Below are positions 17,250 through 48,054 of a DNA stretch of 50,575 bases, one piece after another. Numbering within the stretch: the first letter of the stretch is position 1; the number at the start of each line of letters is the position of its first letter. A model generated the notes under the pieces. The model was not told the DNA's origin, did not search any database, and saw only the letters and a list, made by a program, of their open reading frames with translations. Location: IMG/VR virus record IMGVR_UViG_3300045988_081930; one strand, given 5' to 3'. The translations under genes and the position numbers were made by a program. Origin of the DNA: a virus.

Positions 17250-17305
17250 AATAGCTAAACCTCCAAAATTGTTTTGTGCAATGCCTATAATACAGCGATT
17301 TTAGG

Positions 17306-17360
17306 CAAAAAACAACAGGAAAACACCCCCGGCGGGCCGTGTGGCCTTGGCTGGGGGTGT
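17306..17360 (-). terminator. Rho-independent terminator (minus strand)
   Basis: ACACCCCC...GGGGGTGT stem, followed on the minus strand by a U-rich run. Confidence 0.55.
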
Positions 17361-17436
17361 TGCTGTTTGCGCAGGTTTTGTGATCGTGGCGGGCAGTTTT
17401 GTGCCCGGGGCGGGCGGTTTTGTGCCCGGGGAGGGG

Positions 17437-17772
17437 TTATTTGTGATCGTCGGGGCCTGTTTCGTGATTGGCGGGCGGGTTGCCGGTCAAGGACGGCGGC
17501 AGGCCGTTTTCATCCAGCGGGCCGGTGTATTCTGTGAGGTCAATCAAGGTCACTTCCGGCGGAGGGGGTATGAGCTTATAATATTTGCCGTTTTCGTAGT
17601 GCAGATCGGTCACGCCGTCATACCATGCAATATCCCCGTGTTGGGCTTGGGCGGCCTCCATGCTTTGTTGTGCCTGCGCTTCGGTCAGACCGTCGAACAG
17701 CAGGCGGGCACCGTCGGAAAACTGGGCAACAAGACGGTAAGGCGGATAAACGGCCATGTTTTCGTTATTCAT
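17437..17772 (-). CDS. Hypothetical protein
   Basis: MNNENMAVYPPYRLVAQFSDG...; AAAGGG RBS. Confidence 0.55.
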   Translation of the reverse strand: MNNENMAVYPPYRLVAQFSDGARLLFDGLTEAQAQQSMEAAQAQHGDIAWYDGVTDLHYENGKYYKLIPPPPEVTLIDLTEYTGPLDENGLPPSLTGNPPANHETGPDDHK

Positions 17773-17810
17773 GCGTTGCACCCTTTCGTTTTGTGTTTTG
17801 TGATGGGCCT

Positions 17811-17819
17811 ATTATACCA
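17811..17819 (-). promoter_or_regulatory. Extended -10 promoter element (TGGTATAAT) on the minus strand
   Basis: Plus strand attatacca; about 35 nt upstream of the 17772 start. Confidence 0.45.
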
Positions 17820-17888
17820 CGCAATGCCCCGGCGGTGAACCGGGGCGGCGCGGTGTTTTTGTTTTGGGGTTGTTATCCGGGGCACAAT

Positions 17889-18785
17889 TTACAGGCCAAG
17901 CACCCGGCGGGCGGCGTATTCGGCATTTTGTGTTAGCTGGCGCTGCCATGCTTTGTTGCGGGGCGACCAGCGAAAACCGTTGGATTTGAGAGCGTCGCGG
18001 GTGTCTGCGTCGGGGATTTCGTCGAACAGGATTTGCAGGCGGTTTTCTTCGGCATTGCGCACGATCTCGCCGCCGTCAAATTTCGTGGCGTTGTCGGGCT
18101 GCTGGGCGGCGGCTTGCAGTTTGTCCAGATCGGCAAGGCGGGCTTGTACGCGCTTGATCTTGCCGCGCAGGCTGGACAGTTCAAAATTGCCGTAGGGTTT
18201 GCCGTACAGCTTGACGGAAAAGGCGTCCGGGTCGGTGAGTGCGTCGGCCTGCTGATCGGTGAGGCTGGCATAGCCGCGCAGGGTTTTGTGCTTGCGGTAG
18301 TAGGCATTGGCGGCCTTGCAATAATCAAGGGCGTTTTGCTCCTGCTGCAAGCGGTCTTGGAGCAGTTCACGGGCGTGGGGGTCGGTCAGGTCTACCGCGC
18401 CGGTGCCCACGCTGCGGATTTTGTCAAGGATGGCGTCAATCTCCTTGTACTCCTGCCAAAGAGAATCGCGGCGGGCGTTCTGCTTTTGCTTTTTGCGTAC
18501 CGGGAAGTTGCTGCCGCCGCAAACGAGGATGGAGGGGCAGGCCGATTCGTTGCGGTAATAGGCGTTGTAGTAGTCGGCAAGGCGGCGGGCGTAGCGGTCA
18601 AGCAGGGCGTCCAGCTTGTCGTGATAGTAGGGGCTGATCTTGGCTTTTCGTGCCTGTACCAGTGCGGCGGCCTTGTCCACGGCGGCACGGTATTCTTCCG
18701 TAGCGCTGCCGGGGCGGTAGTCGCTCATAGAATTAACATCGTTCGCACGGCGGGCGGTTTGTTCGTTGATTTCGTAGTATTGCAT
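17889..18785 (-). CDS. DUF3560-like protein (plasmid/ICE leading-region type)
   Basis: Internal ATG (MQYYEINEQ) after AGGAGG; C-terminal GFRWSPRNKAWQRQLTQNAEYAA. Confidence 0.55.
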   Translation of the reverse strand: MQYYEINEQTARRANDVNSMSDYRPGSATEEYRAAVDKAAALVQARKAKISPYYHDKLDALLDRYARRLADYYNAYYRNESACPSILVCGGSNFPVRKKQKQNARRDSLWQEYKEIDAILDKIRSVGTGAVDLTDPHARELLQDRLQQEQNALDYCKAANAYYRKHKTLRGYASLTDQQADALTDPDAFSVKLYGKPYGNFELSSLRGKIKRVQARLADLDKLQAAAQQPDNATKFDGGEIVRNAEENRLQILFDEIPDADTRDALKSNGFRWSPRNKAWQRQLTQNAEYAARRVLGL

Positions 18786-19109
18786 TTTGTGTGCCTCCTG
18801 TTTTGTGTTTTGGGTAATGGGGACGGGCCGCTTTACAACTGGCCCGGCGTGGCGTTGTGCCGCTGGGGGCTGCCGTGTGGTCTTATGCCAGGCGGCGGTG
18901 CCCATTGCGCAGGGCGGGCGGGGCCTGTTTTTGTGGTGATAAGCTGCCCGTAAACCGTGCCGGGTTCGCCCGGCGGCGGGTACAATCTGTTTTGTGGGGA
19001 GGTGTACCGGCTCCCGTTGGACTTATGCCAGCACCCCGGCGGGCTGGCGGCCATTGTTGGCGATGGGTGCGCGTTGTGAGTTCGTGCCGGGCTTGTGATC
19101 GTGTTTGTT

Positions 19110-19183
19110 ACCCATGAGCGCCCACCCTTTGCAGGGTGGCCGGGCTTGCACCGGCGGCGCGTTATGCGTCGGCCTTGCGGGTC
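19110..19183. repeat. 74-nt structured intergenic repeat, copy A
   Basis: acccatgagcgcccaccctttgcagggtggccgggcttgcaccggcggcgcgttatgcgtcggccttgcgggtc. Confidence 0.9.
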
Positions 19184-19625
19184 AATCAAGGCAAGTTTCG
19201 CGCTTGATTTTGTACTGCGCTTTGATCTTGTCATAGGCGCGGAGCGTGACCATGTAGGTGCCCTGTTCTGCGTCGTAGGTAATGCCGCGCCCGTGGAGCG
19301 GGGGCAGGCCGTCACGCAGGGGGCGCAGAAAGTAGTGCTTGCCATAGTAGGCAAGATCGGCGGCGTAGTCGCAGCCCGTGGGGGCCTGCTGCATTTCGTA
19401 GCAGTAGGAATACTCGCCGGGGGCGGTGGCCTGCACGGCGGGGGTCTTGGCGGCCTCCAATGCGTCATAATCGGGGGCGTAGCCGTAAACCTCGCCGGTG
19501 CTGGGGTCGTAGCGGGAAACGGAAAAATCCGGGATGAAAAGCGCCGTGTTTGCGCCGATCTGCTGGGAGTAGCCACCGGGAACCGGGGCAAAGGTGCCGG
19601 GAATTTTGCGTTCTGTTGCTGCCAT
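19182..19625 (-). CDS. Hypothetical protein
   Basis: Internal ATG (MAATERKIPG) after AGGAGG. Confidence 0.55.
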   Translation of the reverse strand: MAATERKIPGTFAPVPGGYSQQIGANTALFIPDFSVSRYDPSTGEVYGYAPDYDALEAAKTPAVQATAPGEYSYCYEMQQAPTGCDYAADLAYYGKHYFLRPLRDGLPPLHGRGITYDAEQGTYMVTLRAYDKIKAQYKIKRETCLD

Positions 19626-19633
19626 TGTGAAAG

Positions 19634-19748
19634 CCTCCTGTTTTGTGCTGTGTTTTGTGTGGGCGGTTTTGTGTACCCATGAGCGCCCGCCCCATGTGGG
19701 GTGGCCGGGCTTGCACCGGCGGCGCGTTATGCGTCGGCCTTGCGGGTC
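19634..19748. repeat. 115-nt intergenic repeat, copy B (74-nt core plus CACAAAAC leader and RBS)
   Basis: Core 19675-19748. The five substitutions relative to copy A are all inside one hairpin. Confidence 0.9.
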
Positions 19749-19755
19749 GTGTGGG

Positions 19756-19953
19756 TTAGTCGGAGATACAAAGCATATAGCCGCGCTTGGCGCAGATGAT
19801 CGAAAGCCGGTTAAACTCCATGTAGCGACGGAGGGCGTCGGGGTTGCGGGTGTCGGCCAGTTCTGCCCGGTGGCGCTGCATATAACGGCGCTGCGTGGCA
19901 AGCTCTTTTTGTGCTTGACGGTCAGACAAACGGAAAAGCGTGTAAGTGGTCAT
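19756..19953 (-). CDS. Small protein, unknown function
   Basis: MTTYTLFRLSDRQAQ... after AGGAGG. Confidence 0.5.
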   Translation of the reverse strand: MTTYTLFRLSDRQAQKELATQRRYMQRHRAELADTRNPDALRRYMEFNRLSIICAKRGYMLCISD

Positions 19954-19962
19954 AGTGTGCGG

Positions 19963-20077
19963 CCTCCTGTTTTGTGTTGCGTTTTGTGTGGGCGGTTTTG
20001 TGTACCCATGAGCGCCCACCCTTTGCAGGGTGGCCGGGCTTGCACCGGCGGCGCGTTGTGCGTCGGCCTTGCGGGTT
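19963..20077. repeat. 115-nt intergenic repeat, copy C
   Basis: Core 20004-20077; 2 differences from copy A. Confidence 0.9.
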
Positions 20078-20084
20078 GCGTGGG

Positions 20085-20576
20085 TTAGAACATGGAAATT
20101 TGCTCACATTCGGCGGCGGGCTGTGCAGGGGCGGGAGCTGCGGCGGCCTGCTGCGCTGCCTTGCGGGCCTTGCGTTCGTCGGCCAGCTTTTTGTTATAGG
20201 CGGCGATCTCCTCCGGGGTCTTGGCCTTGGGGGCGTCGTCCTGCCCGGCGGGCTTGACCTGATCGCGGGTGAACAAGTGCGCCTTGGCCATGTAGTAATG
20301 CGGGTCGGGGGCGTCGGCGTCGGGGCCGTTCTGCCCGGCCTTGGCGGCCTCTGCGCGGGCGGCCTTGGCGGCCTTGCCGGGGCGCTCGGTGTACTTCCAC
20401 AGATCGCAGGTAATGGCGGCGTGTTCGCCGCGCTTGACGGAGTAGCCCGCCTTTTTCCACTCTGCAAAGGTGTGAATGGGCAAGCAGCCCTTGGCGGCCA
20501 CGATGGCCTGCGCCTCTGCCTTGGTGTAAATGCCGTGTGCGATTGCCTGATTGATGATGATCTCGTTGTTAGTCAT
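20085..20576 (-). CDS. ArdC-N-like ssDNA-binding domain protein
   Basis: LPIHTFAEWKKAGYSVKRGEHAAITCDLWKY ... HYYMAKAHLFTRDQV; internal ATG (MTNNEIIINQ) after GGAGG. Confidence 0.5.
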   Translation of the reverse strand: MTNNEIIINQAIAHGIYTKAEAQAIVAAKGCLPIHTFAEWKKAGYSVKRGEHAAITCDLWKYTERPGKAAKAARAEAAKAGQNGPDADAPDPHYYMAKAHLFTRDQVKPAGQDDAPKAKTPEEIAAYNKKLADERKARKAAQQAAAAPAPAQPAAECEQISMF

Positions 20577-20692
20577 GGTGAAAACCTCCAAAATATTTTT
20601 TATTAGATCGGCCCGGCGGGCTTGCAGCGGGCCGGATGTTTTGATAAAATGGGGGTAGCCGCTGACAGGAGCGGCCACCCTTGCGAGGGGTG

Positions 20693-20733
20693 AAAAGGGT
20701 TCAGCGCTTTTGCCGGGGCTGAACCCCTTTTTT
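20693..20733. terminator. Bidirectional hairpin terminator
   Basis: GGGTTCAGC...GCTGAACCC, flanked by AAAA and TTTTTT. Confidence 0.6.
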
Positions 20734-20869
20734 ATTTCCCTGCGCTTGCGGTGGGCGGTGTCGTGCCTGCAATGTATTTCAGGCAGTCAAGCACCTGCGC
20801 CGGTGTCATGCCTTGCGCCCGGAGCCAATCGGCCAGCCGGTCAAGCTCTTTTGCTGTCGTGTCGTTCAT
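20732..20869 (-). CDS. Small protein, first gene of the inverted module
   Basis: MNDTTAKELDRLADWLRAQGMTPAQV; GGAGGAG RBS. Confidence 0.45.
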   Translation of the reverse strand: MNDTTAKELDRLADWLRAQGMTPAQVLDCLKYIAGTTPPTASAGK

Positions 20870-20910: not shown

Positions 20911-21054
20911 CTGTTGCGTGTCGCCTGCTGTGCCTGAATGGTAGCACGCAACAGGGTTGTTTGTCAAGCCCTGTTGCGTGCTTTCTGCGTTTTGCACAAA
21001 ATCCTGTTGCGTGCTTTGTGCAAGTTGCACTGTTGCGTGTTTTTGATTTATAAT
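20911..21054. promoter_or_regulatory. Divergent control region: five copies of CTGTTGCGTG (one inverted), plus a TTGCAC-18-TATAAT promoter reading rightward
   Basis: Sites at 20911-20920, 20945-20956 (inverted), 20969-20980, 21003-21013 and 21030-21039. -35 at 21025-21030, -10 at 21049-21054. Confidence 0.65.
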
Positions 21055-21091: not shown

Positions 21092-21310
21092 ATGGCAGTA
21101 TCAGAGAATAAGCGAAAAAATAACGATAATTACAACAAGAAATGCGATTACATCAGCATTAGGCCGCTGAAAGAACGCGGCGAACAGATCAGGCAGGCGG
21201 CCAAGCTGGCCGGGCAAAGTCTGCAAGGGTACATCTTGCAGGCCTGCGCCGAACGCATGGAGCGCGACGGCCTGCCCATCGACCAGCCCGCCGCCGATGA
21301 AGAAAAATAA
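21092..21310 (+). CDS. Ribbon-helix-helix (CopG/Arc-like) DNA-binding protein
   Basis: 72 aa; ISIRPLKERGEQIRQAAKLAGQSLQGYILQA, a beta-strand then helix pattern; AGGAGG RBS. Confidence 0.5.
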   Translation: MAVSENKRKNNDNYNKKCDYISIRPLKERGEQIRQAAKLAGQSLQGYILQACAERMERDGLPIDQPAADEEK

Positions 21311-44888: not shown

Positions 44889-45983
44889 ATGGCTAACAAC
44901 TTTGATGCAATGCGCATGGCCGTGCGGGCCGTGTTCCCAACCAATGATGTGCTGATGGACGATAAGGACGAGCCGAGCGTTATGGTGTACATCCCGGCGT
45001 TCCGCCTGTGTGATGTGCTTTCGACCAGCGACACGAGCGTACACCCGGCGTTCCGCATGAACGGCAAGGAGATCGCGGGCTTTTACATGGGCAAGTACCA
45101 GACGAAGCACTACAATGGCCGCGCCTACAGCCTGCCCGCGCAGGACCCCGCCAACGGCCAGAACTACGACCAGTTCCGCCAGCAGGCCGCCGCCAAGGGC
45201 GCGGGATGGCATGAGACGACCAACGCCGAGTGGGCCGCTGTGGCGCTGTGGTGCCACAAGAACGGCTGTGAGCCGAAGGGCAACAACAACTACGGCAAGG
45301 ACACCAACGAGAGTGGGTATATTGCTATCCCGGCACCGGGCGTGCAGGATAACAACAAGACCGCCCGCGTGCTGACCGGCACCGGCCCGGTCACTTGGAG
45401 CCACAACGGCCAGATGGACGGCATCTTTGACATGAACGGCAATGTGTGGGAATGGGTACTTGGCCTGCGTCTGGTCAAGGGCGAGTTGCAGATCATTGCG
45501 GACAACAACGCCGCCGACAGCTCTTGCGATTCGAGCGCAACCTCTACCGCATGGAAGGCCATCAAGGCAAGCGACGGCACCCTGATCACCCCGGACGGGA
45601 ACGGAACTACCGAGGGCAGCGTGAAGCTGGACTACATCGGCAGAAAGGGCGTGTGGAGCGCCAACATGACCAACCGCGAGGACAAGGGCGTCGGCTGCGG
45701 ATTCAAGGACGTGAGCGCCGATGCCACCGTGGGCGATGCCGCAAAGCTGCTGCTTATGAGCCTTGCACTGATGCCGGACACCGCGCTGACGGGCACCGGC
45801 ATTGACGCAACCTACGGCGGCAACTACTTCTACTTCAACAACGGCGCGGATGAGCGGTGCCCGCATCGCGGCGGCGGCTGGCACAATGGCGGCTATGCGG
45901 GCGTGTTCGGCTTGAACTTGGGCTACCCGCGCTCGTATGCCAGCTGGAAGCTTGGCGGGCGCTGCGCTTTTGTAAAGCAGTAA
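44889..45983 (+). CDS. DGR target protein (receptor-binding candidate) with a C-terminal lectin/FGE-like variable region
   Basis: The last 117 nt are the VR; ...GGGWHNGGYAGVFGLNLGYPRSYASWKLGGRCAF. Confidence 0.8.
   Translation: MANNFDAMRMAVRAVFPTNDVLMDDKDEPSVMVYIPAFRLCDVLSTSDTSVHPAFRMNGKEIAGFYMGKYQTKHYNGRAYSLPAQDPANGQNYDQFRQQAAAKGAGWHETTNAEWAAVALWCHKNGCEPKGNNNYGKDTNESGYIAIPAPGVQDNNKTARVLTGTGPVTWSHNGQMDGIFDMNGNVWEWVLGLRLVKGELQIIADNNAADSSCDSSATSTAWKAIKASDGTLITPDGNGTTEGSVKLDYIGRKGVWSANMTNREDKGVGCGFKDVSADATVGDAAKLLLMSLALMPDTALTGTGIDATYGGNYFYFNNGADERCPHRGGGWHNGGYAGVFGLNLGYPRSYASWKLGGRCAFVKQ
45854..45970 (+). repeat. DGR variable repeat (VR)
   Basis: Gapless alignment to TR: 15 mismatches, 14 of them at TR adenines. 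Confidence 0.9.
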
Positions 45984-46004
45984 GCTGGACCCTGATGTGC
46001 TGGG

Positions 46005-46024
46005 GTCTGCGCGATAGCGCAGAC
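46005..46024 (+). other. Perfect 8-bp stem with GATA loop downstream of the VR (DGR target-recognition hairpin candidate)
   Basis: GTCTGCGC-gata-GCGCAGAC. Confidence 0.7.
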
Positions 46025-46075
46025 ACAAACCCTGCGCGGCTTTGAGCCGCGCCGAATTTACAGGAGGTGTTGACT

Positions 46076-46483
46076 GTGCCGAGAAATGCCGAGGTGCCGC
46101 CCCAGAGGACGGCTGGCGAAGCACAATATCAACCGTTTTGGCTGCGCGAGAAAACCAAAGAAATGCTGCATTATGGATATAAGCTGACAATGATGTTCCC
46201 ACGGAAAAGCAAAGAGCTTGCCGATGAAATGCGCCGCACCATGATCAGCATGTACAGAATGACGGTTGAGTTAGACAAGAAGTGCTACAAGAAAACGACC
46301 ACACAAACGCTGGACATTGAGCTGGCATGGCTGCGCGAGCTGGTAGTGATGGCAAGTGATAAGGATTTCTACGGTGATAAAATGCAACCGCCCCTTACCA
46401 TGCACCAGCGGGAAGTGTGGGCGAAAATGAACGATGAGATCGGACGGCTGCTGGGCGGCTATTTGAAAACGCTGAAACAGTAG
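46076..46483 (+). CDS. avd: DGR accessory variability determinant (Avd-like)
   Basis: About 135-aa basic helical ORF between VR and TR; GTG 8 nt after AGGAGG (ORF track start 46067). Confidence 0.7.
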   Translation: MPRNAEVPPQRTAGEAQYQPFWLREKTKEMLHYGYKLTMMFPRKSKELADEMRRTMISMYRMTVELDKKCYKKTTTQTLDIELAWLRELVVMASDKDFYGDKMQPPLTMHQREVWAKMNDEIGRLLGGYLKTLKQ

Positions 46484-46522
46484 ACGGACGCTTTTCATAA
46501 ACCGGGAATGCGCTATTTTACG

Positions 46523-46639
46523 GCGGTGCCCGAATCGCGGCGGCAACTGGAACAATGGCGGCAATGCGGGCGTGTTCAACTTGAACTTGAACAACCCGCG
46601 CTCGAATACCAACTGGAATATTGGCGGGCGCTGCGCTTT
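46523..46639 (+). repeat. DGR template repeat (TR), followed by an approximately 180-nt spacer up to the RT
   Basis: 26 adenines, AAC/AAT-rich in the VR reading frame; non-coding context. Confidence 0.9.
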
Positions 46640-46821
46640 ACGATCAAACACACGCAAGGTGGCGGAGGTTTACGCCGGACAAGAGGGCTGCTGCTTACGA
46701 GCGGCAGTCGGTGTGTGAACTTAAAGGAGCGCATTTCCGTTCCGGGCGTTGAACCCGGAAAAAATGTGAATTGCCCGGGAAACAGAAATGCGACACCGGG
46801 CGGAGCGAGAAGTAAAAATTT

Positions 46822-48054
46822 ATGAGTAAAAAGCTCGGAGAGCCGGTAGCGCTGGCACGGGCAGAAGATGGGCACACGGTCATTGGGCCGGGTGCCTTTG
46901 CTGTTATGACGGACTTTGCGTGGCTGGAACGGGCAAACCGCAACGCACGCAAGGGAAAGAGATACCGCGAGGAAGTGCGGTATTTCCATCAGAATCTTGA
47001 CGGCAACATGCTGGACATACAGCGGGATGTGAGGGCCGGCACCTACCGCACGGGCGGCTACCGGCATTTGTGGGTGCAAGTGCCGAAGAAACGGCTTGTG
47101 ATGGCGCTGCCCTACCGTGACCGCATTGTACAGTGGAGCGTGTACCAACTGCTGAACCCGTATTTTGACCGCACATTTATTACAGACAGCTACGCTTGCC
47201 GCGTAGGCAAAGGGAGCCACAAGGCTGTTGGGCGGCTGCAATACTGGCTGCGGCAGATAGACCGAAGCATATACCCGGATTGGTACTACCTGAAGCTGGA
47301 CATAAGCAAATACTTCTACCGCGTGGATCATGCGGTGCTGCTGGAAATACTGGGCAGGCGGATCACGGACCCGGATGTTATGGCCCTGCTGGAACGGGTG
47401 ATCAACAACCCGAACGAGCCGTTTGGACTGCCGCGCGGCAAGAAGCCGGAGGACGTGGCGTTTGAAAGCTGGCTGTACAACGTGGGGATGCCGATAGGCA
47501 ACCTGCTGTCGCAGATGTTCGCAAACATTGTGTTGAACGAGCTTGACCAGTATTGCAAGCACGTCTTGAAGCTGCACTGCTACATCCGCTACATGGACGA
47601 CATACTGGTGCTGGGGCCGGACAAAGAACAGCTGAAGCAGTGCCATGCGGCGATTGCGGCATTTTTGAGCGAGATGCTGCACCTTGACCTGAACGCCAAG
47701 ACCTGCATACGGCCTGTGAGCATGGGCATTGAGTTTGTGGGGCAGCGTGTTTGGGCGACGCACGCGGTACTGCGCAAGAGTACGGTACGCCGGATGAAAC
47801 GCGAGGTGCGCAAGATCAGCGAGGATGTGCGGGACGGCGTTATTAACCGGCAGGAGTATCAACGGCGGGTGGCAAGCATACGCGGCATGATGGACCACAC
47901 GAACAGAGGTGCGCTGCGCTGGCGGCTTAACGAGATAACACGGAACATCGTAGGTGAAGAATATGGACAACTGCCTTATGGCCGAGGCGACAGTGATCGA
48001 AAAGCTGTGCGCGGTGGTGGAGCTGCAAAGCGAGATCATCCGCGTGCAGCATGA
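46822..48054 (+). CDS. DGR reverse transcriptase
   Basis: MPIGNLLSQMFANI and YIRYMDDILVLG motifs; 410 aa. Confidence 0.9.
   Translation: MSKKLGEPVALARAEDGHTVIGPGAFAVMTDFAWLERANRNARKGKRYREEVRYFHQNLDGNMLDIQRDVRAGTYRTGGYRHLWVQVPKKRLVMALPYRDRIVQWSVYQLLNPYFDRTFITDSYACRVGKGSHKAVGRLQYWLRQIDRSIYPDWYYLKLDISKYFYRVDHAVLLEILGRRITDPDVMALLERVINNPNEPFGLPRGKKPEDVAFESWLYNVGMPIGNLLSQMFANIVLNELDQYCKHVLKLHCYIRYMDDILVLGPDKEQLKQCHAAIAAFLSEMLHLDLNAKTCIRPVSMGIEFVGQRVWATHAVLRKSTVRRMKREVRKISEDVRDGVINRQEYQRRVASIRGMMDHTNRGALRWRLNEITRNIVGEEYGQLPYGRGDSDRKAVRGGGAAKRDHPRAA

What the first reader, a model, noticed from the sequence alone, without database searches (positions are those of the whole stretch)
19110..20077. Family of 74/115-nt structured intergenic repeats with compensatory stem changes in the inverted module
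Three copies of a 74-nt core (19110-19183, 19675-19748, 20004-20077) each sit within 0-7 nt of the stop codon of a minus-strand gene. Copies B and C extend to 115 nt, including the CA-rich leader and RBS of the next gene. The core can be drawn as an outer ACCC/GGGT helix and a GCGCC/GGCGC helix enclosing two hairpins: CCACCCT-TTGC-AGGGTGG and GCCGG-GCTTGCA-CCGGC (plus-strand sense). Copy A differs from C at 2 positions, one in a small hairpin loop and one at the last base. Copy B differs from A at 5 positions, all inside the first hairpin: a T-A pair becomes C-G (double compensatory), an A-T pair becomes G-T, and the other two changes lie in the loop. Conservation of pairing rather than sequence argues for a functional RNA or ssDNA structure. 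The G-T pair is tolerated only in plus sense, which is antisense to the genes, so the orientation is unresolved. A degenerate fourth copy lies at about 20590-20690. I cannot assign it to any known element. Candidates are intercistronic processing or stability elements, attenuators, or ssDNA-promoter-like hairpins as in plasmid leading regions.
Basis: partly seen in the sequence, partly recalled or inferred. Interest (0 to 1): 0.65.

Follow-up and report, generated by a model that had tools for sequence, protein, structure and literature searches.

The report
Three twister-sister ribozymes in phage operon
The three repeats are copies of the already described twister-sister self-cleaving ribozyme, lying between small early genes of a gut-bacterial phage, where they most likely cut one long messenger RNA into single-gene pieces; this is an ordinary member of a known RNA class.

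Summary
They are not an unknown element. All three are full-length matches to the Rfam family Twister-sister (RF02681) on the minus strand, scoring 91.5, 87.2 and 90.0 bits against a gathering score of 34. The minus strand is the coding strand of the flanking genes, which settles the orientation; the plus strand scores only 10-14 bits with my own model. By correspondence with the crystal structure, the predicted cleavage sites (CUC^AU) lie between 19116|19115, 19681|19680 and 20010|20009.

The window is a temperate sheathed-tail phage of gut Clostridia. Across 119 twister-sister copies in 75 related viral, metagenome and genome loci plus the window, 80 of 83 distinct contexts have the ribozyme starting -1 to +11 nt after a stop codon. 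It is then followed either by a short G-poor leader with a Shine-Dalgarno site or by a conserved ~140-nt non-coding module. Co-oriented arrays of 2-5 copies are common.

The most likely role is self-cleavage of the polycistronic early transcript into separate mRNAs. This is inferred, not shown. The "fourth copy" is not a ribozyme. Novelty is low. The only possibly new item is the conserved module that follows copy A.

The parts
19105..19185 (-). Twister-sister ribozyme copy A (P1-to-P1 core 19110-19182). Predicted cleavage between 19116 (C) and 19115 (A). The stop codon UGA of the upstream gene (19184-19182) overlaps the first base of P1.
   Evidence: Rfam RF02681 91.5 bits, E 3e-20, model 1-81/81. 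Own model R1 105.8 bits. Cleavage step placed by correspondence with C62-A63 in CUC^AU of the crystal structure (PMC5660989).
19670..19750 (-). Twister-sister ribozyme copy B (core 19675-19747). Predicted cleavage between 19681 and 19680. P5 carries one C-G-for-U-A compensatory change and one A.C mismatch.
   Evidence: RF02681 87.2 bits. R1 100.1 bits. Differences listed.
19999..20079 (-). Twister-sister ribozyme copy C (core 20004-20076). Predicted cleavage between 20010 and 20009.
   Evidence: RF02681 90.0 bits. R1 103.7 bits.
19954..20009 (-). 56-nt G-poor leader that would become the 5' end (5'-OH) of the gene-3 mRNA after cleavage of copy C. Holds three CACAAAAC motifs and AGGAGG.
   Evidence: Sequence, (distance 56).
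19626..19680 (-). 55-nt leader of gene 2 after cleavage of copy B. Same design as the leader after copy C; the two leaders differ at 2 positions.
20085..20576 (-). Gene 4 (163 aa, hypothetical; weak PHROG anti-restriction-like hit). Its stop lies 8 nt before P1 of copy C.
19756..19953 (-). Gene 3 (65 aa, hypothetical), between copies C and B.
19182..19625 (-). Gene 2 (147 aa, hypothetical), between copies B and A.
18976..19115 (-). Module X: a conserved non-coding stretch that begins at the cleavage site of copy A. It has a covarying hairpin (19048-19043 : 19032-19027) and a candidate pseudoknot. Its ACCCAU (19068-19063) is complementary to the new 5' end AUGGGU.
   Evidence: Alignments A3/A4, pair counts. 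Always preceded by a twister-sister copy. No Rfam hit.
18811..18848 (-). Hairpin plus CCCCAUUACCCA tail just upstream of the Shine-Dalgarno site of gene 1. Sub-threshold resemblance to RAGATH-5.
   Evidence: RF02685 15.1 bits against gathering 50. Full RAGATH-5 hits in relatives.
17889..18785 (-). Gene 1 (298 aa; the matching PHROG family is annotated 'primase'), downstream of copy A and its 330-nt leader.
   Evidence: phrog_19458 E 4e-136.
20577..20731 (-). It holds a terminator-like hairpin (20730-20693) and two further hairpins (20683-20653, 20634-20609). It is not a ribozyme; at most 20666-20689 is a relic of the ribozyme's 3' part.
20938..20967 (-). Promoter-like site (TTGACA-18-TG-TACCAT) that could drive the leftward operon holding the ribozymes.
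   Evidence: consensus match only.

Best explanation
The three repeats are twister-sister self-cleaving ribozymes of the four-way-junction type. They are transcribed as part of the leftward (minus-strand) early operon of a temperate phage of gut Clostridia.

Proposed mechanism. As the operon is transcribed, each ribozyme folds into P1, internal loop L1, P2 and hairpins P3, P4 and P5. It then cuts its own backbone between C and A of CUC^AU, six nucleotides before its 3' end.
- The upstream fragment keeps its open reading frame. A few nucleotides after the stop codon it ends in the compact ribozyme fold with a 2',3'-cyclic phosphate.
- The downstream fragment starts with a 5'-hydroxyl and AUGGGU. 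A 50-nt G-poor, unstructured leader with a strong AGGAGG site follows. After copy A the conserved module X follows instead.
- The net effect is that one polycistronic transcript becomes separate mRNAs whose stability and translation can be set independently.

Shown here: family identity, strand, conserved catalytic nucleotides, covariation, and the intercistronic placement rule.

Inferred: that cleavage happens in vivo, and what it achieves. I put identity at about 0.97 and this functional reading at about 0.55.
For: - Rfam cmscan gives RF02681 at 87-92 bits against gathering 34, full model length, with every highly conserved consensus position identical in all three copies.
- My own covariance model, built from 47 distinct sequences, scores 100-106 bits on minus and 10-14 on plus.
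- There is covariation in P1 (A-U 33, G-C 8, G-U 4) and P5. Overall 96.4% of cells are paired, against 24-47% for slid partners.
- The L1 residues match the crystal-structure description: G5, A8-U61, C62-A63, U64 (PMC5660989).
- The copies lie on the same strand as the flanking reading frames, which have Shine-Dalgarno sites.
- Context across 119 copies: 80 of 83 distinct contexts have the stop of a reading frame of at least 40 aa within -3..+12 nt of P1. The antisense control gives 8 of 83 and random positions give 9.3%. Of the 49 copies without module X, 48 have a Shine-Dalgarno site 15-48 nt after the cleavage site. No locus has copies on both strands, and arrays hold up to 5 copies.
- Ribozyme positions are kept between orthologous genes that are only 38-40% identical in protein sequence.
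- A 2019 review records the same idea, processing of polycistronic transcripts, as suggested but unproven for bacterial hammerhead and twister ribozymes (PMC6765202).
Against: - There is no direct evidence of cleavage.
- Nearest-neighbour folding does not recover the native fold (native -27 against MFE -32 to -33 kcal/mol). Z-scores are not significant and are slightly better for the plus strand. The strand call therefore rests on the covariance models and the gene context.
- Copy B has an A.C mismatch in P5 and could be slower.
- In Firmicutes a 5'-OH end can be a substrate for RNase J1, as for the glmS ribozyme product (my own knowledge). Cleavage could therefore lower rather than stabilise downstream expression.
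- The stop codon abuts or overlaps P1, so a terminating ribosome would unfold the ribozyme. The timing of folding relative to translation is unknown.
Confidence: 0.8

Rival explanations
1. The ribozymes are active, but their purpose is to lower or time expression. Cleavage exposes a 5'-OH that targets the downstream cistrons for 5'-exonuclease decay, as with glmS. Alternatively it uncouples them from the promoter-proximal genes, so that it acts as a polarity or attenuation device rather than a stabiliser.
For: The anatomy and the family assignment are the same as for the best explanation. The 2019 review leaves the direction of the effect open. Module X after copy A can pair with the new 5' end, which suggests that the 5' end matters.
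Against: Strong AGGAGG sites 15-48 nt from the new 5' end and G-poor leaders look built for efficient ribosome loading. Essential-looking genes, such as the one matching the 'primase' family, lie downstream of all three ribozymes.
Confidence: 0.2
2. The stop-to-Shine-Dalgarno cassettes mainly serve at the DNA level. They would be homologous linker sequences that let phages swap or lose genes by recombination, and ribozyme activity would be secondary.
For: The 127-nt cassette is repeated at 92% identity between unrelated genes. Relative L049 lacks gene 3 and one ribozyme, exactly as expected from recombination between copies B and C. A and C differ at only 2 of 74 positions although they flank unrelated genes.
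Against: A linker needs no conserved catalytic core and no compensatory stem changes, yet both are present. Distant relatives keep the core while P5 is completely rewritten.
Confidence: 0.1
3. The structure works on the plus strand, or as single-stranded DNA: an antisense RNA, an ssDNA promoter, or an origin hairpin as in plasmid leading regions.
For: The plus-sense fold is somewhat more stable (z -1.4 to -1.7), and the B-copy change gives G-T in plus sense.
Against: The plus strand scores 10-14 bits against 100-106 for minus. The invariant loop nucleotides match the ribozyme only in minus sense. There are no promoter hexamers inside the copies. There is no match in 72,556 plasmids. The placement rule holds only in the sense orientation, 80/83 against 8/83.
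Confidence: 0.02
4. The copies are inactive relics, or merely recent duplications without function.
For: A and C are nearly identical. A possible relic fragment exists at 20666-20689.
Against: All conserved positions are intact in all three copies. The flanking genes are not paralogues. Positions are conserved across relatives whose proteins are only 38-40% identical.
Confidence: 0.04

Closest known systems
Twister-sister self-cleaving ribozyme (Rfam RF02681; Weinberg et al. 2015; four-way-junction crystal structure, Zheng et al. 2017, PMC5660989)
   Same: Full-length match with the same helices P1-P5, the same invariant L1 and SL4 loop nucleotides, and the same C-A cleavage step. As reported for the class, it lies among phage-type genes and close to other ribozyme copies.
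   Different: Nothing structural differs. Copy B has one A.C mismatch in P5. Copy A is fused at its 3' side to a conserved extra module that is not part of the family model.
RNase III processing sites between the early genes of phage T7 (my own knowledge)
   Same: Structured elements in intergenic spacers of a phage early operon that convert a polycistronic transcript into separate mRNAs with structured 3' ends.
   Different: Those are long double-stranded hairpins cut by a host protein. Here the longest helix is 6 bp and the RNA is predicted to cut itself.
Bacterial and phage hammerhead and twister ribozymes, and the RAGATH motifs
   Same: The same kind of neighbourhood. A role in processing polycistronic mRNAs has been suggested but remains unproven (PMC6765202; PMC10085705). 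In relatives, RAGATH-5 occupies the same stop-codon-to-leader slot one gene upstream.
   Different: They are different folds and different families.
Synthetic ribozyme insulators such as RiboJ (my own knowledge)
   Same: Self-cleavage is used to give a downstream cistron a defined 5' end that does not depend on what lies upstream.
   Different: RiboJ stays on the downstream RNA. Here nearly the whole ribozyme stays on the upstream RNA, and only AUGGGU goes downstream.
glmS ribozyme
   Same: A bacterial self-cleaving RNA in an mRNA, where the 5'-OH product determines mRNA fate.
   Different: glmS needs a metabolite cofactor and lies in a 5' UTR. No ligand dependence is known or indicated here.

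Membership tests
Twister-sister ribozyme (RF02681) | Full-length covariance-model match above the curated gathering score (34 bits) | tested here: met
   91.5, 87.2 and 90.0 bits, model 1-81/81, E about 1e-19 to 1e-20.
Twister-sister ribozyme (RF02681) | Secondary structure of P1, internal loop L1 and P2, with a junction carrying hairpins P3, P4 and P5 | tested here: met
   All helices form in A and C. B has one A.C mismatch in P5 (alignments).
Twister-sister ribozyme (RF02681) | Highly conserved nucleotides of L1 (GCAAGG / GCUCAU) and of the P4 loop (GUGCAAGCC) | tested here: met
   Every upper-case consensus position is identical in all three copies. They are also invariant in 47 distinct homologues.
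Twister-sister ribozyme (RF02681) | C-A scissile step in the 3' strand of L1, flanked by U and U (U61 C62 A63 U64) | tested here: met
   GCUC^AUGGGU is present in all copies. Correspondence taken from PMC5660989.
Twister-sister ribozyme (RF02681) | Stems supported by covariation among homologues | tested here: met
   Four pairs have changes on both sides and 96.4% of cells are paired. No shuffle (0/500) reached the observed percentage paired, both-sided-change counts or covariation score. Slid controls give 24-47% paired. Caveat: the homologues were collected with a pattern that fixes the conserved loops.
Twister-sister ribozyme (RF02681) | Mg2+-dependent site-specific self-cleavage giving 2',3'-cyclic phosphate and 5'-OH | not testable with these tools
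   This needs an in vitro cleavage assay or end-specific RNA-seq.
Intrinsic terminator / attenuator | G+C-rich hairpin followed directly by a U-tract on the transcribed strand | tested here: not met
   No minus-strand terminator-like site lies in 19105-20079. The sequence after the ribozyme is AACAAAC or ACACAAAAC.
ssDNA promoter / single-strand initiation hairpins of plasmid leading regions | A hairpin that restores -35/-10 hexamers in a plasmid leading region | tested here: not met
   There are no promoter-like hexamers within the copies, no similarity in 72,556 plasmids, and the context is a phage operon.
RNase III intercistronic processing site | An extended hairpin of about 20 bp, with or without an internal loop | tested here: not met
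   The longest helix is 6 bp and the fold is a four-way junction.
RAGATH-5 (RF02685), for 18811-18848 only | A match above the gathering score (50 bits) over the whole model | tested here: not met
   15.1 bits, model 13-53 only. Relatives have true hits at 62-65 bits.

The most novel reading that the evidence does not exclude
Copy A is not a stand-alone ribozyme. It is the 5' half of a composite element. The ~140-nt module X (18976-19115) would then be an undescribed structured RNA whose 5' end is made by ribozyme cleavage. Its ACCCAU segment competes with, or replaces, helix P1 of the ribozyme.

That arrangement would do one of two things. It could lock the cleaved state and hide the 5'-OH end from 5' exonucleases. 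Or it could make cleavage conditional on the fold of X, giving a natural allosteric twister-sister.

X is found only after a twister-sister copy (45 of 45 viral loci and about 15 metagenome loci). It sits in front of unrelated genes. It has a covarying hairpin and a candidate pseudoknot. It has no Rfam match.
Probability: 0.25. Interest if true: 0.6.

Novelty: already known. Interest (0 to 1): 0.3.

Why it matters
As an identification it matters little. Twister-sister is a curated Rfam family, solved by crystallography, and identical copies are present in public viral contigs.

Its value is as a clean natural test bed for an open question: what self-cleaving ribozymes do in phages and bacteria. 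Here three copies sit in one short operon. Each starts at or just after a stop codon and each lies just before a ribosome-binding leader. The same rule holds in 80 of 83 distinct contexts. That makes the 'polycistronic mRNA processing' hypothesis directly testable with point mutants and end-mapping. Some related copies lie in genomes of named gut bacteria, for example Gemmiger formicilis.

Tried and rejected
- The discovery paper (Weinberg et al. 2015) is not held. Statements about it rest on later papers and on my own knowledge.
- tRNA-like idea (74 nt with an acceptor-like helix): ARAGORN finds no tRNA.
- Energy-based folding as a test of structure and strand: not informative. Z-scores run from -0.5 to +0.3 on minus and -1.4 to -1.7 on plus, and the native fold is not the MFE.
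- GenBank phages and PLSDB plasmids: no copy of the ribozyme. The only phage hit is a contig fragment, MT837378.1, that covers gene 1 and stops about 215 nt before copy A.
- Fourth copy: rejected as a ribozyme.
- Gene-plus-spacer duplication: rejected. Genes 2, 3 and 4 share no significant similarity.
- The metagenome scan for module X used too loose a pattern. About 105 of its 120 hits were chance matches in G+C-rich metagenomes, and only about 15 were true, all next to a twister-sister copy.
- Pfam, NCBIfam and PDB sequence searches gave no function for genes 2-5.
- Module X as a protein-coding gene: rejected. Its indels are not multiples of three and one variant has an in-frame stop.

Full report
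**The observation.** The region holds three near-identical 74-nt copies at 19110-19183 (A), 19675-19748 (B) and 20004-20077 (C). Read on the minus strand, A and C differ at 2 positions and A and B at 5, all five in one hairpin. B and C stay similar over 115 nt, with 9 differences. The repeat finder extends B and C to 127 nt at 92% identity, 19633-19759 and 19962-20088. The flanking genes are on the minus strand and have AGGAGG sites:
- gene 5, 20732-20869
- gene 4, 20085-20576
- gene 3, 19756-19953
- gene 2, 19182-19625
- gene 1, 17889-18785

So the repeated unit is a whole intergenic cassette, from stop codon to ribosome-binding site.

**What it is.** Rfam cmscan of the whole window gives exactly three matches above gathering score. 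All are Twister-sister (RF02681) on the minus strand:
- 19105-19185: 91.5 bits
- 19670-19750: 87.2 bits
- 19999-20079: 90.0 bits

The gathering score is 34 and each match covers the full model. In the alignments every highly conserved consensus nucleotide is identical in all three copies. These are GCAAGGCC.AC, GCC.GUGCAAGCC.GGC and GGCGCUCAU. The helices P1 (ACCC/GGGU), P2 (GCC/GGC), P3, P4 and P5 all form. No tRNA is present.

**Strand.** I built a covariance model from 47 distinct sequences. It scores 100-106 bits on the minus strand and 10-14 bits on the plus strand. In RNA sense it is an A.C mismatch at the second pair of P5. Across the 47 sequences that same pair reads A-U 27, C-G 9, G-C 3, G-U/U-G 4 and other 4, which is clear RNA-sense covariation with an occasionally tolerated mismatch. 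P1 also covaries (A-U 33, G-C 8, G-U 4). Energy-based folding gives no help. The native fold sits about 5-6 kcal/mol above the predicted minimum and the z-scores are not significant. They are slightly better in plus sense. This is expected for a fold held by tertiary contacts and Mg2+. It does mean the strand call rests on the models and the gene context.

**Cleavage sites.** The four-way-junction crystal structure places cleavage at C62-A63, with A8-U61 paired and U64 opposite G5 (PMC5660989). That is the C^A of GCUC^AUGGGU. In window coordinates on the minus strand the cuts fall at:
- 19116|19115 for A
- 19681|19680 for B
- 20010|20009 for C

Almost the whole ribozyme stays on the upstream fragment, and only AUGGGU goes downstream.

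**Surroundings.** The window is a temperate sheathed-tail phage. It has an integrase (309-1448), small and large terminase, portal, protease, major head protein, tail sheath and tape measure. The ribozymes lie in the leftward operon that starts near a promoter-like site at 20967-20938. Genes 2-5 have no assignable function. Gene 1 matches a PHROG family annotated as primase. A strict twister-sister pattern finds 59 loci in IMG/VR. It also finds 7 in bacterial genomes: Gemmiger formicilis, Acutalibacter, Oscillospiraceae, Oribacterium and Clostridiales. GenBank phages and PLSDB plasmids hold no copy.

**Placement rule.** My model finds 107 copies in those 66 loci, 9 more in loci fetched later, and 3 in the window.
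- After removing duplicate contexts and copies at locus edges, 83 contexts remain.
- In 80 of the 83, a reading frame of at least 40 aa ends -1 to +11 nt before the first base of P1.
- In 28 of them the last base of the stop codon is the first base of P1.
- The antisense control gives 8 of 83, and random positions give 9.3%.
- Of the 49 contexts without module X, 48 have a Shine-Dalgarno sequence 15-48 nt after the cleavage site.
- Copies within a locus are always co-oriented. Ten loci have 2 copies, ten have 3, three have 4 and one has 5.

**Not a recent gene-plus-spacer duplication.** Genes 2, 3 and 4 are not paralogues. In distant relatives (L034, L035, L038, L003) the ribozymes sit between orthologues that are only 38-40% identical in protein (gene 1 and gene 4), or 72-93% (gene 2). 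P5 is entirely rewritten there with pairing kept. One relative, L049, lacks gene 3 and one ribozyme. That is what recombination between cassettes B and C would produce.

**How it most likely works.** Co-transcriptional self-cleavage divides the early polycistronic RNA.
- Each upstream mRNA ends, right after its stop codon, in a compact fold with a 2',3'-cyclic phosphate. Such an end should hinder 3' exonucleases.
- Each downstream mRNA begins with a 5'-OH, a G-poor leader and a strong ribosome-binding site.

Identity and anatomy are shown here. Cleavage in vivo and its consequence are inferred. A 2019 review lists this idea as suggested but unproven for bacterial hammerhead and twister ribozymes (PMC6765202). 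A 2023 paper still calls the reason for the phage association unknown (PMC10085705). The main rival is that cleavage lowers downstream expression through decay from the 5'-OH end. I could not obtain transcript data.

**The 'fourth copy'.** The spacer 20577-20731 holds a terminator-like hairpin straight after gene 5 and two further hairpins. Neither Rfam nor my model reports anything there at E<=10. A local alignment finds one 25-column stretch (20666-20689) resembling the 3' part of the ribozyme. In it CUCAU has become CUCCU. The score is just above the best of 300 shuffles. At most it is a relic.

**Beyond the finding.** Copy A is followed not by a short leader but by 330 nt before gene 1.
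- The first ~140 nt (module X, 19115 to 18976) are conserved in front of unrelated genes in many phages.
- X was found only directly after a twister-sister copy: 45 of 45 viral loci and about 15 metagenome loci.
- It is not coding and has no Rfam match.
- One hairpin covaries at four pairs, and a candidate pseudoknot switches between A-U (13 sequences) and G-C (15 sequences).
- Two further 6-bp pairings are invariant and so untested. One of them joins ACCCAU to the new 5' end AUGGGU, which is the 3' strand of ribozyme P1.
- Diversity is low, so this remains a lead.

Further downstream, a hairpin with a CCCCAUUACCCA tail resembles RAGATH-5 below threshold. In relatives a true RAGATH-5 starts exactly at a stop codon and precedes a short leader. 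That is the same slot the ribozymes occupy.

**Verdict.** This is a real feature, correctly noticed and correctly suspected of being a functional RNA, but it belongs to a known family. Novelty is 'already known' and interest is low to moderate. The placement statistics and module X are the only additions.

Noticed in passing
window 18976-19115 (-): Module X is a conserved non-coding stretch of ~140 nt directly after ribozyme copy A. In related loci it is always preceded by a twister-sister copy and followed by unrelated genes. It has a covarying hairpin, a candidate pseudoknot, and an ACCCAU complementary to the post-cleavage 5' end. It has no Rfam match.
   Followed up: partly
window 18811-18848 (-) and 18882-18889 (-); L068 8370-8420 (-): A second GGCAUAAG unit and a sub-threshold RAGATH-5-like hairpin lie in the long leader of gene 1. 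In relatives a full RAGATH-5 (62-65 bits) starts exactly at a stop codon and precedes a short leader with a Shine-Dalgarno site. That is the same slot the ribozymes occupy.
   Followed up: partly
window 17271-20002 (-): The octamer CACAAAAC occurs 15 times, all on the minus strand and all within 2.7 kb, against 2.4 expected in the whole window. There are three per leader after copies B and C, one in module X, and three in the tandem repeats at 17375-17424. It could be an unstructured translation leader or a protein-binding motif.
   Followed up: partly
window 17377-17466: Four tandem 21-nt repeats (minus sense CACAAAACYGCCCGCC...) lie just after the gene at 17437-17781 and before a terminator-like hairpin at about 17331-17316. 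They look like iterons and sit near the gene matching the 'primase' family.
   Followed up: no
window 44889-48054 (+): A reverse transcriptase gene (46822-48054, phrog_1423, E 1e-121) lies next to a tail-related gene (44889-45983). This is probably a diversity-generating retroelement of the phage.
   Followed up: no
window 20943-21030: Direct and inverted repeats of CCTGTTGCGTGC lie around the divergent promoter region between the leftward operon and the rightward gene at 21092. They look like operators.
   Followed up: no
L074 1482-1560 (+): This twister-sister copy has a mutated cleavage-site strand (GGGCGGGCTTGGGT instead of GGGCGCTCATGGGT) and a changed P2. It is probably a dead copy, the only one among 119.
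   Followed up: no
L049 (whole locus): This relative has gene 4 | ribozyme | gene 2 | ribozyme | gene 1. Gene 3 and one ribozyme are missing, as expected from recombination between two ribozyme cassettes.
   Followed up: partly
L068, L069, L071, L072, L073, L075: Related phages carry the D12-methyl RNA motif (RF02950, 84-95 bits) and clusters of tRNA genes a few kb from the ribozyme.
   Followed up: no
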